Assembly (NCBI GenBank): GCA_951406725.2
Contig: OX597822.1
Location: 101,742,001-101,806,000 of the forward strand
Direction: 5' to 3'
From: Octopus vulgaris
Taxonomy: Eukaryota
DNA: 64,000 bases
Shown: in pieces, positions 4,100-26,264 of the stretch
How positions within the stretch are numbered: the stretch's first letter is position 1
Layout of the letters: each line of letters opens with the position of its first letter
Notes under the pieces: model-generated
What the model saw: only the letters and a program-made list of their open reading frames with translations
Databases searched by the model: none
What the model was told of the DNA's origin: nothing
Position numbers and translations under genes: made by a program

Positions 4100-6950
4100 T
4101 ATAATACCCGTATTATTCAACCCAAGGATAACAAACGGGAAGTACGTACTTTAAGCTTGTTTCACAAGAAGTACGAAAAACTACACGTGTAAAACCATTT
4201 AACACCAGTAATAAATGGACCTGTACTCTATGAAAATGATGACCATCAAAATAAAGGACCGGACGTTATTCCTCACGTCCCGCAAATAAAATCAAAAAAA
4301 GCATAAATGGACACGCGAGGAATATATTTCAATCCTACACACTTATTTTATATCAGTGCTCTACCCACAGAACGGAAAGACAAAATATAAAAATCCAGAA
4401 GAAGAATAACCTGGATAGCGATTTAGACACAACACTGAACCCTAATAAACTAGCCAACATGCGGGGATATATTCTCAAAACGACAAAAAGTTTTAAAAAT
4501 CAGAAATAGAAATAGAAAACTTAAAAGTAAAAATACGCGAAGAAAATGTAGATAGTAACCACACATCATTGTCAAATAATACCATAAGCATTGAGAAGGT
4601 AAAATACGAAAACAGACGTCACATGTCCAACAAAAACGAGGTAAACAACGAAAGACAACAAACCCAAACCGCAGGAATGTATAATGATGAAGAAAATGCA
4701 CCAAACCAGAACACCACAGACAAAAATATGAACGGGAGGGAGTACGAAGCAAATCTAAAAACTTCTGGTTACAATATCTAACAAGAATATATAAAACGTT
4801 GGCTGAGAAAGTTAATGAAATACTAGCAGAGCCAGAGACAATGCTTGAATGGCTCACGGAAGGGAAAAGTATCCTAATTCCCGTATAAACTGAAACGGCA
4901 AACCTACAAAATTACAGAACAATAACTTGTCTCCCTACAATTTACAAAGCCTTTACTGCAATAATATCGTAGAGAATGGGCAAGCATCTGGAAGAAAACA
5001 ACCTGTTTCCAGAAGAGTAGACGGGATGATGCAAGGGCTCATAAGGCTGTAAAGATCAGCTACTGATCAATAAAGCCATAACTGAAGACATCCACAGACA
5101 GAAGAAAGGTTTAAATATAGCTTCGATAGATTATCGAAAGAATTTTGATAGTATTCCCCACACTTGGCTCCTAGAAACACTAAAAACACAAGGTAGCACC
5201 AATAATCATAAAATATATAAGACATATCATGAATAAGTGGCAGACAGTGCTTCGGCTCCAGACAAAGAGCGTTTCATAAAAGTCAAAGCCATCCCAATTA
5301 GAAGAGGAATATTCCAGGGAGTCACGCTCTCTGCACTTATTTCCTGCTTGGCACAGACACCTTTAAATGACATGCTAAACAGAATTGGATGTGGATACAA
5401 GTGTTACGGCAAAACAATTAACCATCACTTGCATTTGGATGAGGTAAAACCGTATGATACAAATGATAAACAGCTGGAAACATCACTACAGAGAGTACAT
5501 GGATTTACTAAAGAAATAATCAGGAAATTTGGCATAGAAAAATGTGCCAAAGCAACTTCGAGAAAAGTAAAACTAGTTAAGAGTAGCAACATTACACTAG
5601 ATAAAGCAAATGAAATAAGAAAATTAGACCAAAGCCAGATATACAAATATGTAGGAATCAATGAACAAGATACGATACAACACACATAAATGAAAGAGAA
5701 GATAGGAAAGAATACTAAAGACGAGTTAGATTCATACAGAAAACAAAGCTCAATGCGAAAAACAAGATAATAGGTATCAGTACTCTGGCTGTCCCTGTTA
5801 TAAGTTACAGCTACAATGTTCTTAACTTGACTCTAAATGAAATAGTCAAATTAGACAGGAAGACAAGAAAAATAATGACAGGATTTAGGATGTACCACCC
5901 AAAATATGACATAGAAAGGATATACATACAAAGTATCGAAGGTGGTAGAGGCCTTATACAGCTAGAAAACTATTACAAAATAATATCATAGGACTACAGA
6001 AATACCTACTTCAGAAACAAATAAAACGAATGCAAATGGCCACAAAACACAAACAAAACAAAGACCTGTTTTCTGTTTTTAAGGAAGCTGAAAAATACGA
6101 AAAAGAAGTCATAGTACCTAACAACTATGAAGAAAAAGATAAAACGACAAAAGCTGTAAAACAACTAAAATCCAAACTAAAACTGGAGTAGCAACGTATC
6201 ATGATAAAACGATGGCAAGAAAAGCTCCTACATGGCAAATATTAGGTTAAGCTGAACAGAAAAGAAATAGTGAAAGTAAAATCTCAACAATAGCTGAGAA
6301 GCTCCGGACTCAAAGCAAAGACTAAATGATTTTTAATTGCAGCAGAAGATGAAAGCCTTCCCACCAGTTCTGGCTAAGAAAGAATATATTCACAGACACG
6401 ACAGAGTTGGGGCCTAGATGCACTGGAAGCTATACCAACATTATGGAATAACAACAGAAAAACGATGGTATAGACACACGCCAGAAAAGGTCACAGAAAA
6501 TGAGAAAGCAACAATATTCTGGGATATGTTAATACACACAGATAGAGAAATTAAGGCCAATAAGCCGGATATAGTTGTCGTGCTTTCTAATCGATGTATC
6601 AATAGTAACAGATGACAATGTTTCTCTAAAAGAAACGGAAAAATTTTCAAAAAACAAAGATCTGGAAATAGAAGTAAATCGAATGCGGAGCCTAAAGACA
6701 ATTCCTATTACAGTAGGCGTAGTAGATATGGTAAAAAATTATTCGCACAAATACATAACTAAACACCAGGTCTAACAAGTATATATAACATGCAGAAAAT
6801 AGCCCTACTAGGCACTGCACACATCCTACGTAAAACACTTTCAATACAGTAAAAATAAGAGCATCACAACAAACCACAGCACATACCAAAGGCAAACAGA
6901 GCTACGCTCAGTCGTTCAGTGAGAGCATATCATAAAAATAAGACTACTGA
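4100..6950 (+). mobile_element. Decayed, internally deleted near-full-length R4/Dong-clade non-LTR retrotransposon (lineage A)
   Basis: Across stops/frameshifts: N-terminal KWTREEY..NKLANMR; RT motifs NYRTITCLPTIYK, GCKDQLLINK, IDYRKNFDSIPH, RRGIFQG, HLHLDEVK (degenerate YMDD); RLE motifs HRHDRVG, WDMLIHTDREIKANKPDIVV, GTAHILRK; 3' UTR ends ACTACTGA then (ATA)n; 5' boundary approximate. Confidence 0.9.
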
Positions 6951-7023
6951 ATAATAATAATAATAATGATAATAATAATAATAATAATAATAATAATAAT
7001 AATAATAATAATAATAATAATAA

Positions 7024-8310
7024 TATCTGCCAAGAAAAGAGGGAGGCCGTGGTCTTTTGCAACTGGCAATAACAATGAAGATTGCTACAATTGGCCTAGA
7101 CACCTACCTGAAAAACTCTGAGGACTGGATGTTAAAACTTGTCTCAAAACATGAAAACAAGAAAGCATCATACTCAGTCACAAAACAGGCAAAGGAATAT
7201 CTAAGTGAATTCCGAATACAACCAATTTCGGAATTAGAGATAGACATACAAGAAACAAGCACAGAAAAAGCTAGGCGCATGAAAACCCGTGCCAAAACTG
7301 CGGCCTTAGATATTCTGAATAATAAATGGCAAGAAAAACCTCTCTATGGCAAATACCCAAAGAGAGCGAATAATGCAGATATCGACAAAGCCCTGACCCA
7401 TCAATGGCTAATGGCCTCTGGCTTAAAATCTGAAACAGAGGGGTTTATCATAGCAGCTCAAGATCAATGCCTACCAACAAGAAACTACCAGGCCAACATA
7501 TTAAAGATCAGAAGCAGTCCAACGTGTCGTGTATGCAAGCAACAAAATGAAACCATTGACCATGTGGTCTCCAAGTGCAGTCTTCTAGCGCCTACAGAGT
7601 ATCTCAACAGGCACGATAGAGCTGCACAATATATTCACTGGGTAATCTGTAAAAACCTGGATTTGCCCCATGAAAAAAACTGGTGGGAACACAAACCACC
7701 CCCAGTGCTTGAAAATGACCACATCTCACTCCTCTGGAACTTCACCATTCAAACTGACAGGAAGATAGATGCAAATAGGCCAGACATCATATTGAAAGAC
7801 TTCAAACAAAGAACATGCCTCCTCATTGATATGACTGTCCCAATCGATATAAACGTATCTGTCAGGACCTACCAAAAACTGAGCAAATATAAAGATCTTG
7901 AAATAGAAATCAGTAAAATGTGGAAGCTGAAGACTAAAACAATACCTGTTGTCATAGGTGCCCTGGGAATGATAGCAAAAGGGGCTGATAGCTACCTAAC
8001 TCAGATACCAGGAAACCCAAAAATGGCAGAAGTTCAAAAGATAGTGCTCATGGGAACTGCTCATATCCTACGCAAAATACTCTCTATGTAACCTCAAGGT
8101 TTAAAACAACCATAATTTTCGGTTTAAAAAAAAAAAAAAAAAAAAACTTTTTTTTTTTTTAGACATTCATTAGTACAACATCCCCACCCCCCAAATATAT
8201 GGCACACTAGGCATAACAACAACATGAACTTCCAACCCTGTTGTCTCTTGAGGTCTCTGGGTGAGACTTGGAGCCAACTTGTACAAATATAAAGCAAAAG
8301 TCAAACATAG
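7024..8310 (+). mobile_element. 5'-truncated young R4/Dong element (lineage B)
   Basis: Starts YLPRKEGGRGL directly after (AAT)n; unbroken frame to 8091; 3' UTR ends CAAACATAG then (AAT)n. Confidence 0.93.
7057..8091 (+). CDS. Stop-free C-terminal part of an R4/Dong ORF: thumb/linker, CCHC zinc knuckle and RLE; no true start
   Basis: LKSETEGFIIAAQDQ, CRVC..ETIDHVVSKC, RHD, RPDII..IDMTVP..KLSKYKDL, GTAHILRK; in-frame TAA at 7021-7023 shows it is a truncated fragment. Confidence 0.85.
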   Translation: MQLAITMKIATIGLDTYLKNSEDWMLKLVSKHENKKASYSVTKQAKEYLSEFRIQPISELEIDIQETSTEKARRMKTRAKTAALDILNNKWQEKPLYGKYPKRANNADIDKALTHQWLMASGLKSETEGFIIAAQDQCLPTRNYQANILKIRSSPTCRVCKQQNETIDHVVSKCSLLAPTEYLNRHDRAAQYIHWVICKNLDLPHEKNWWEHKPPPVLENDHISLLWNFTIQTDRKIDANRPDIILKDFKQRTCLLIDMTVPIDINVSVRTYQKLSKYKDLEIEISKMWKLKTKTIPVVIGALGMIAKGADSYLTQIPGNPKMAEVQKIVLMGTAHILRKILSM

Positions 8311-25551: not shown

Positions 25552-25637
25552 ATAATAATAATAATAATAATAATAATAATAATAATAATAATAATAATAA
25601 TAATAATAATAATAATATTAATAATAATAATAATAAT

Positions 25638-26264
25638 TACAAATGCAACACCAGGCATGGCTTTCATGCCACCTGATCTTAACTAAACCCCACTGCAATA
25701 CCAGGCACTGACACTCATGGCTTCTGATCTGAACTGAGTGTTATCATGTACTAATTTTGTCTTGCCATAAAAGATGGACTGCAGCAAATATCCTGCTCAG
25801 TACTACAGTGGTGGAGGACAAGCGCAACACCAACAGATTTGCTTGTCAGCTGCTGGACCTTAATCAGTTGAGCATGTCCCTTAATGGCTGACGATATGTG
25901 CATCTCTGATCACGAGCAGAAGAAAAGAATCATAGCCATGTGTTGAGAGGATTTCTTTGGGGTTTAAATAATTTGCTTCTAGAAACGTGGGCGTTTCCTT
26001 CAAAATCCTTAAACGACCGTTATTCAGGGACTTTTTGCGTGGGATGGGCTTAATCGACCTGAAGAAAATTCTAACTGGGCCCCATCTGCCATGACGTGCG
26101 TTGTATATCTTGATATGAGATCACCATGTGACGCACATATGGTTGTGATACATGTGCTGGGTGTACCCAGGAACATGTATCACAACCAGTCATGATGGGT
26201 ATATTGGGCTTCGTATATTTGTACCCCAGTGTCAGTTTAATGGCATTTGCTGCTCCCTCACTCA
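25638..26264 (+). mobile_element. Older, diverged, longest copy of element E
   Basis: Colinear with 18021-18545; decayed tail AATAGTAACAATGATGA. Confidence 0.75.

What the first reader, a model, noticed from the sequence alone, without database searches (positions are those of the whole stretch)
4100..26264. 22-kb strand-uniform array of R4/Dong retrotransposon 3' ends punctuated by (AAT)n: a self-growing insertion trap
Seen: 26 retroelement segments from at least four diverged RLE lineages plus a non-coding element, all on the + strand, almost all bounded by (AAT)n on both sides, most reduced to the RLE region and 3' UTR. Known: Dong elements of the R4 clade target (TAA)n, and target-primed reverse transcription yields 5'-truncated, orientation-fixed copies. 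Inference: each insertion splits and regenerates the target, so the locus gains slots as it grows. The result is a repeat-spacer layout that archives the 3' ends of many families, loosely CRISPR-array-like in form only. One minus-strand transcript would be antisense to all of them, as in a uni-strand piRNA cluster such as flamenco; that function is speculation.
Basis: partly seen in the sequence, partly recalled or inferred. Interest (0 to 1): 0.8.

Follow-up and report, generated by a model that had tools for sequence, protein, structure and literature searches.

The report
Duplicated stack of dead retrotransposon ends
A 22-kb run of broken retrotransposon ends, all facing one way between AAT repeats, is real but looks ordinary: half of its 26 pieces are copies of already-dead neighbours, so it likely grew by repeated insertion into the elements' usual AAT target followed by local DNA duplication, and a defence role remains untested.

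Summary
The array is real. It holds 22 Dong/R4-type RLE-LINE pieces and 4 pieces of a non-coding element, all on the + strand between AAT-derived tracts. A 1.07-kb unrelated segment interrupts it.

It is not 26 insertions. A four-piece block (C-D-F-A3) occurs four times with the same 5' truncation points, stop codons and spacer defects. Only 13 junction classes are distinct, and 8,880 of 18,845 element bases are duplicates. The four blocks are mosaics of one another, which points to unequal crossover and gene conversion.

Uniform strand needs no selection, because (AAT)n is an asymmetric target. In 80 metagenome loci of relatives, 32 of 49 element ends are followed by TAA repeats and 5 loci hold same-strand tandem pairs. 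The pattern of a regenerating target followed by unequal exchange is published (PMC5932611; PMC4370867).

There is no age gradient and the pieces are not unique, so the CRISPR likeness fails. The piRNA-cluster idea could not be tested. Genome-wide frequency could not be tested either, as no genome is held.

Verdict: new member of a known kind; low interest.

The parts
4101..6949 (+). A0: old, near-full-length Dong/R4-type element (N-terminal motif, RT, RLE, 3' UTR), many stops and frameshifts, internal deletions; no AAT tract at its 5' end
   Evidence: 16-20% diverged from A1-A4
7025..8310 (+). B: young 5'-truncated element; open 355-codon C-terminal frame with CCHC, RHD, PD..D and K..KY..L motifs
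8389..8600 (+). A1: 212-bp 3' end of family A (distinct truncation point)
8649..9720 (.). X: unrelated segment, followed by a (TAC)/(TGC)/(TAA) compound tract to 9871; splits the array in two
   Evidence: no profile hit; single in the window
9872..10416 (+). A2: 545-bp 3' end of family A (distinct truncation point)
10504..14059 (+). Unit 1: C1 10504-10993, D1 11024-12118, E1a 12242-12584, F1 12732-13680, A3a 13750-14059
14081..14223 (+). B': 143-bp 3' UTR end of family B, 0 mismatches to B in 143 columns
14382..17936 (+). Unit 2: C2 14382-14879, D2 14895-15991, E1b 16117-16457, F2 16590-17538, A3b 17614-17936; C part like units 3/4, D-E-F part like unit 1
18021..18545 (+). E2: non-coding element, distinct truncation point, 50-bp tandem duplication at its 5' end
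18689..21701 (+). Unit 3: C3 18689-19185, D3 19201-20299, F3 20372-21304, A3c 21395-21701
21854..25550 (+). Unit 4: C4 21854-22349, D4 22365-23463, A4 23509-24102 (insertion found only in this unit), F4 24187-25120, A3d 25244-25550
25641..26264 (+). E3: old copy of non-coding element E (16-18% from E1/E2), degenerate tail running into (GATA)n
6950..25640 (+). AAT-derived spacers between the segments (about 2,250 bp in all); one interrupted spacer is copied in front of C2, C3 and C4 (14305, 18621, 21765)

Best explanation
The locus is a stack of 5'-truncated Dong/R4-type retrotransposon ends in (AAT)n in which a dead four-piece block is present four times, and it most likely arose passively: about 13 target-primed insertions into AAT tracts, then unequal crossover and gene conversion among the units. 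Step 1 (known mechanism; inferred here): an RLE element cuts (AAT)n in a fixed orientation, and incomplete reverse transcription leaves a 3' piece with AAT on both sides, so the target survives and multiplies. Step 2 (shown): pieces C, D, F and A3 sat head to tail, and D and F already carried their stop codons when they were copied. Step 3 (copying shown; DNA-level mechanism inferred): the block was duplicated to four units, with an older split at about 3.5-4% divergence and younger ones at about 1%, and sequence was exchanged between units. Step 4 (inferred): further insertions (E1, B', E2, A4) landed in individual units between or after those events. No host function is needed to explain the layout.
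For: Block duplication: 10401-14080 vs 14266-17957 is 96.6% identical over 3,724 columns. Four copies each of C, D, F and A3 start at the same 5' point. 4 of 4 F copies have stops at codons 37, 185 and 219, and 4 of 4 D copies at 53, 57 and 77. 4 of 4 A3 copies share three states absent from A2 and A4. An interrupted spacer is copied before C2, C3 and C4. Mosaicism: C2 is 0.8% from C3/C4 but 3.5% from C1; D2 is 0.7% from D1; F2 is 1.05% from F1 but 4.1-4.2% from F3/F4; A3a is 1.0-1.3% from A3c/d, while A3b is 2.6-2.9% from all three. D has a run of 423 columns with no substitution in any copy; 0 of 20,000 permutations reached it (F: 154 columns, p=0.013; C: none, p=0.96). Clade behaviour: 32 of 49 C-terminal ends in 80 metagenome loci are followed by (TAA)>=3 within 500 nt, and 5 of 80 loci hold same-strand head-to-tail pairs. 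Literature: Dong targets (TAA)n in most insects, molluscs and cnidarians (PMC7998251). An insertion preserves its target and makes a new one, and tandems expand, with unequal exchange named as the obvious cause (PMC5932611). [quoted passage not shown]
Against: The four-unit structure was not confirmed in independent reads (see Tried and rejected), so an assembly origin of the roughly 1% pairs is not excluded. Whether 13 insertions at one spot exceed genome-wide expectation could not be tested (no genome). The metagenome loci show only pairs, never a deeper stack, though most contigs are short: 18 of 80 have 1,500 nt or more outside the main element. 3 of 80 loci hold opposite-strand pieces, and 17 of 49 ends lack a TAA run (10 of these have under 250 nt available). 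Clade membership rests on architecture and target, not on a tree with named references. Element E is unidentified.
Confidence: 0.76

Rival explanations
1. The array is a functional uni-strand piRNA cluster: a minus-strand transcript gives antisense piRNAs against several Dong families, and the stack is kept for that.
For: All pieces share one orientation and include ends of young families (B open frame; B' identical to B). Molluscs have PIWI genes, including Octopus bimaculoides, and oyster piRNA clusters are enriched for young transposons, with R2 elements 149-fold enriched (PMC6128900 passages).
Against: The orientation is already explained by the asymmetric target, and relatives stack the same way elsewhere. 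The duplicated material is mostly old dead C/D/F sequence. Content is limited to one LINE clade plus E; the pogo-type and RTE-like elements of the window lie outside the array.
Confidence: 0.08
2. The repeated block spread as RNA. Read-through transcripts of C-D-F ending in the young A3 tail were reverse-transcribed in trans by family A protein and re-inserted into AAT tracts, the 5' join being made by annealing at an internal AAT tract.
For: Every unit ends in A3, a 3' end of a young family, and unit borders fall in AAT tracts.
Against: All four units are adjacent and have the same 5' start. Switches of affinity and the 423-column identical tract lie inside elements, as expected of DNA recombination or conversion. 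Retrotransposition would more likely scatter copies over many AAT sites (inference).
Confidence: 0.06
3. Part of the duplication is an assembly artefact: two haplotypes or mis-resolved repeats laid in tandem.
For: Some pairs differ by only 0.3-1% (C2-C4, D1/D2, F1/F2, F3/F4, A3c/d), and the structure was not confirmed with reads.
Against: Unit pairs also differ by 3.5-4.2%, four units cannot all be alleles, A4, B' and E2 each occur in one unit only, and the window has no N gaps. Even two real units would leave the main conclusion standing.
Confidence: 0.1

Closest known systems
Dong / R4-clade non-LTR retrotransposons inserted in (TAA)n (PMC7998251; PMC3774820)
   Same: Single ORF with RT and C-terminal CCHC plus restriction-like endonuclease, no N-terminal C2H2 fingers in full-length relatives, TAA tracts at the ends, 5'-truncated copies in fixed orientation.
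   Different: Here at least four lineages and a non-coding element share one site in a deep stack; placement by phylogeny against named Dong/R4 sequences was not possible.
Target-preference TE tandems that expand into satellites, e.g. the Drosophila R1 array and hobo expansion (McGurk and Barbash 2018, PMC5932611)
   Same: Tail-to-internal junctions with distinct 5' truncations, target sequence at the junction, later expansion, new insertions after expansion.
   Different: The amplified unit here is a composite of four pieces from different families, the target is a microsatellite, and there are only four units.
Truncated and degenerate R2 copies multiplied in stick-insect rDNA (PMC4370867, abstract)
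   Same: Dead RLE-element copies with the same truncation present several times, attributed to unequal recombination.
   Different: There the carrier is the rDNA unit; here it is the stack of elements itself.
Drosophila telomeric HeT-A/TART/TAHRE arrays and flamenco-type piRNA clusters (listing; details recalled)
   Same: Same-strand head-to-tail retrotransposon pieces.
   Different: Those have a demonstrated telomere or piRNA role. Here none was shown, and no telomeric repeat was listed next to the array.

Membership tests
R4/Dong clade | Reverse transcriptase plus C-terminal CCHC and restriction-like endonuclease in one ORF | tested here: met
   A0 matches the relatives' profile across RT and RLE. 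B has CCHC, RHD, PD..D, K..KY..L. 38 of 38 relatives hit RVT_1; 52 of 53 have CCHC and 50 of 53 the PD..D motif. Best solved relatives are R2 proteins, E=6e-52.
R4/Dong clade | No N-terminal zinc fingers (unlike R2) | tested here: met
   0 of 53 full-length relatives have a C2H2 pattern in the first 400 residues; tested in relatives, A0 itself is decayed. Feature from PMC7998251.
R4/Dong clade | Diverged N-terminal SANT/Myb-like domain | tested here: inconclusive
   Conserved tryptophan motif in relatives; A0 4275-4730 matches that profile region at E=4e-5. Atlas first hit for P0004 25-115 is a Rap1 Myb cluster, score 0.86, a lead only. Pfam found no Myb in 38 of 38.
R4/Dong clade | Insertion into (TAA)n | tested here: met
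   AAT-derived tracts at both ends of nearly all pieces; 32 of 49 ends in relatives followed by (TAA)>=3.
R4/Dong clade | RT phylogeny grouping with named R4/Dong elements | not testable with these tools
   No named R4 or Dong sequence was returned; Repbase and Dfam are not available.
R4/Dong clade | HDV-like ribozyme at the 5' end (shown for B. mori Dong, PMC3774820) | tested here: inconclusive
   No ribozyme family among 7 weak Rfam matches in 3700-4400; A0 is heavily decayed.
Target-preference TE tandem expanded by unequal exchange | Intact 3' ends joined to different 5'-truncated neighbours, with target sequence at the junction | tested here: met
   13 distinct junction classes.
Target-preference TE tandem expanded by unequal exchange | Identical junctions repeated in adjacent, recombining units | tested here: met
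   Four units with shared truncations and stops, mosaic affinities and a homogenised tract; the exchange mechanism is inferred.
Uni-strand piRNA cluster (flamenco type; features recalled) | TE fragments in one orientation | tested here: met
   but explained by target asymmetry.
Uni-strand piRNA cluster (flamenco type; features recalled) | Long single-strand precursor antisense to the fragments, processed to PIWI-bound small RNAs | not testable with these tools
   Only unstranded contigs of RNA-guess runs were offered; they cannot show strand or small RNAs.
CRISPR-like repeat-spacer archive (form only; features recalled) | Unique spacers added in polar, chronological order | tested here: not met
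   13 of 26 pieces are duplicates; the oldest pieces (A0, E3) are at both ends and young ones (B, A1-A4, B') are interspersed.

The most novel reading that the evidence does not exclude
Microsatellite targeting builds strand-uniform, multi-family stacks by itself, and unequal exchange amplifies them. If such a stack is transcribed from the opposite strand, it is a ready-made antisense piRNA source: a route to uni-strand piRNA clusters that needs no selection on orientation, and a seed of composite TE macrosatellites in genomes rich in Dong elements.
Probability: 0.08. Interest if true: 0.7.

Novelty: new member of a known kind. Interest (0 to 1): 0.26.

Why it matters
As found, it is a clear worked example of two known processes acting together: repeated target-site insertion and local duplication of dead copies. 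It is also a caution for repeat annotation, since counting segments here doubles the number of insertions. The locus keeps a readable history of insertions and exchanges and could serve as a test case for how composite TE satellites start. It would matter more only if locus-specific antisense small RNAs were found, because the origin of the orientation bias in such a cluster would then be directly testable.

Tried and rejected
Whole genome: none is held, so the frequency of such arrays and the spread of the composite junctions could not be measured.

Sequencing runs for 8649-12118: no RNA holder listed; this is no evidence either way. Six RNA-guess runs held 0.10-0.13 of the words. That is about what the young A2 piece alone would give (16% of the stretch).

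Reads laid on C2-D2, 14382-15991:
- Raw DNA run X22 gave 10 partial reads, almost all on T-rich stretches, and no full-length read. About 7 would be expected for one copy if the genome were 2.8 Gb (assumed size). Absence in that individual, a different population under the same label, and filtering cannot be told apart, so this was not used.
- X5 and X6 (organisms B and C) gave 1,828 and 1,252 laid contigs. The listed pieces were at most 78 aligned letters and none bridged the C-D junction. Loose ends show other D-family copies running on 5' of 14895.
- X15 (RNA guess) gave 160 contigs with listed pieces of at most 49 letters; uninformative on locus transcription.

Rfam: 0 matches at gathering score in the whole window; only sub-threshold matches at the A0 5' end and in E3.

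3' ends: folds were unremarkable in 5 of 6 (A: z=-2.6). E did not align with the motif region shared by the LINE 3' UTRs, so a SINE-partner link was not shown.

Named references: no octopus-named or Dong-named protein appeared among the 120 listed hits of either, and supplement 1 of PMC9115989 held no Dong sequence. Its other five zip files and its PDF were not searched; two further files are too large to read.

Earlier scan findings: none.

Literature searches listed no paper describing multi-family Dong stacks in (AAT)n. The library lacks most subscription journals, including the Kojima and Fujiwara 2004 survey cited in PMC4640811.

Rejected: 26 independent insertions; chronological polarity; selection as the cause of the uniform strand (the coin-flip value of 2.4e-4 for 13 insertions, uses the wrong null).
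Full report
Observation. Between 4101 and 26264 there are 27 segments separated by microsatellite tracts. Twenty-two are pieces of RLE-type non-LTR retrotransposons, 4 are pieces of a non-coding element (E), and one (X, 8649-9720) is unrelated. 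All protein matches are on the + strand: 345 of 345 tblastn hits and 48 of 48 profile domains. All 37 (AAT)>=4 runs of the window fall inside this region. Three details differ. X and a (TAC)/(TGC) tract split the array in two. Ten of 26 pieces have one degenerate flank (read by eye). A0 is a decayed near-full-length element rather than a 3' end.

What the elements are. The open frame of B (355 codons) has full-length relatives of about 1,200 residues; its best hits are 55-59% identical. Of 53 relatives of 1,150-1,270 residues, 52 have the CCHC knuckle, 50 the PD..D motif and none an N-terminal C2H2 finger. All 38 scanned hit RVT_1, and the nearest solved structures are R2 proteins. PMC7998251 (passages) describes R4/Dong as RT plus REL endonuclease, with a diverged Myb-like domain, no N-terminal zinc fingers, and a (TAA)n target in most insects, molluscs and cnidarians. 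Three of these features were met. The Myb-like domain is only a lead (atlas score 0.86; no Pfam hit), and no tree with named references could be built. I therefore call them Dong/R4-type by architecture and target. The host is not established by any search: the runs are coded, and my reading as an octopus is recalled from the look of the SINE-like repeats and microsatellites. If that is right, Dong-R4 is abundant and recently active there: 5 families and 1,129 recent insertions in O. vulgaris (PMC13282606, parts 1-2 of 3 read).

Self-comparison shows long internal duplications, for example 10401-14080 against 14266-17957 at 96.6% over 3,724 columns. The block C-D-F-A3 occurs four times, and the four copies of each piece begin at the same 5' point. 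All four F copies have stops at codons 37, 185 and 219, and all four D copies at 53, 57 and 77. All four A3 copies share three states not in A2 or A4. An interrupted spacer is copied in front of C2, C3 and C4, and E1 with its (GAT)/(GGT) spacer is copied in units 1 and 2. Independent retrotransposition would give different truncations, as A1, A2, A3 and A4 do. So there are 13 distinct insertion classes (A0, B, A1, A2, C, D, E1, F, A3, B', E2, A4, E3) and 13 duplicates, which hold 8,880 of 18,845 element bases.

How the block was copied. The units are mosaics. C1 is 3.5-3.9% from C2-C4, which are 0.8% apart. D1 and D2 differ by 0.7%. F1/F2 differ by 1.05% and F3/F4 by 0.75%, with 3.6-4.2% between the pairs. 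A3a is close to A3c/d (1.0-1.3%), while A3b is 2.6-2.9% from all three. Unit 2 thus resembles units 3/4 in C and unit 1 in D-E-F. In D, 423 consecutive columns have no substitution in any copy, which 0 of 20,000 permutations reached; F has a weaker tract (p=0.013) and C none (p=0.96). This is what unequal crossover with gene conversion gives (inference). With the octopus rate quoted in PMC13282606 (0.0036 per million years), the splits would be about 5 and 1 million years old. That holds only if host and rate apply, and conversion resets such clocks. There is no age gradient: A0 (16-20% from young A) and E3 (16-18% from E1/E2) are at the two ends, and young pieces lie between.

Is stacking special here? 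In 80 metagenome loci of relatives (the best 80 of 468 confirmed, from a scan that covered 26 of 64 parts), 49 C-terminal ends were found. Thirty-two are followed by (TAA)>=3 in the same sense within 500 nt, 10 have under 250 nt available and no run, and 7 have none. Five of the 80 loci hold same-strand head-to-tail pairs (L017, L025, L042, L048, L056; the L048 junction was not inspected). In L025 and L056 the partners are about 78% identical in DNA, so they are different subfamilies. Three loci hold opposite-strand pieces (L020, L037, L045). Among the 18 loci with 1,500 nt or more outside the main element, 4 have same-strand pairs and 3 have opposite-strand pieces. Stacking is thus common in the clade. 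No stack deeper than two was seen, but most contigs are short.

Comparison with what is known. McGurk and Barbash (PMC5932611; abstract, section 7, first part of the discussion and passages) state that a new insertion preserves its target while making a new one. They also report that non-LTR tandems join an intact 3' end to a 5'-truncated neighbour, and that tandems expand, probably by unequal exchange, and take further insertions. The abstract of PMC4370867 reports truncated R2 copies present in multiple copies, suggesting unequal recombination. The locus fits this kind. What is particular is that the amplified unit is a composite of four pieces from different families. Eight searches listed no description of such Dong stacks, but the library is incomplete. 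PMC3774820, PMC8967140, PMC4640811, PMC9115989 and PMC6128900 were seen as passages only, and PMC5678591 as a listing only. Unread supplements of PMC9115989 may hold the octopus Dong consensus.

The piRNA idea. Molluscs have PIWI genes, and oyster clusters are rich in young transposons, R2 among them (PMC6128900), so some piRNA output from such a locus is plausible. But the single argument for it, the uniform strand, follows from the asymmetric target. The available runs could not test strand or small RNAs. I give a dedicated cluster 0.08. Spread of the block as a read-through RNA gets 0.06 and a partial assembly artefact 0.10; the read check on C2-D2 neither confirmed nor excluded the assembled copy number.

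Verdict. A real, well-resolved example of known processes: new member of a known kind, interest 0.26.

Noticed in passing
window 8649-9871: Segment X (1,072 bp, AT-rich, single in the window, no match to the RLE-LINE profile) ends in a long (TAC)n(TGC)n(TAC)n tract that turns into (TAA)n; it may be original flank or the end of another element.
   Followed up: partly
window 18019-18119: E2 begins with an exact 50-bp tandem duplication, as can arise at a reverse-transcription 5' junction (interpretation recalled).
   Followed up: no
window 26140-26188: E3 contains a near-perfect inverted repeat absent from E1/E2; it gives only sub-threshold miRNA-family matches.
   Followed up: partly
window 8384-8392, 14081, 23509: Several 5' junctions show short microhomology between the AAT tract and the element sequence at the truncation point (A1, B', A4), read by eye.
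   Followed up: no
window 14876 (run X5): In another organism's contigs, 7 C-family 3' ends continue into an AAC-rich tail rather than AAT, so this family may use or decay to a different triplet.
   Followed up: no
window 47382-48632: A decayed RT piece (about 31% to the Dong-type relatives) followed by an RTE-like C-terminal stretch (likeness recalled) and an (AAAAC)n run; not in an AAT tract.
   Followed up: partly
window 35677-36255: DDE_1 transposase fragment (Pfam E=1e-26), pogo/Tigger-type by recall.
   Followed up: no
window 46003-47092 and 45354-45537: Tandem arrays of a 184-bp unit (5.9 copies, 93% match) and a 93-bp unit (2 copies), apparently made of SINE-like pieces; another case of local tandem amplification of repeats.
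   Followed up: no
window 3788-4052: A 140-bp-period diverged duplication (79%) just upstream of A0.
   Followed up: no
L017, L025, L042, L056: Same-strand tandem pairs of Dong-type elements in metagenome contigs; in L025 a truncated 3' end of one subfamily sits directly before a full-length element of another, across a short TAA tract.
   Followed up: yes
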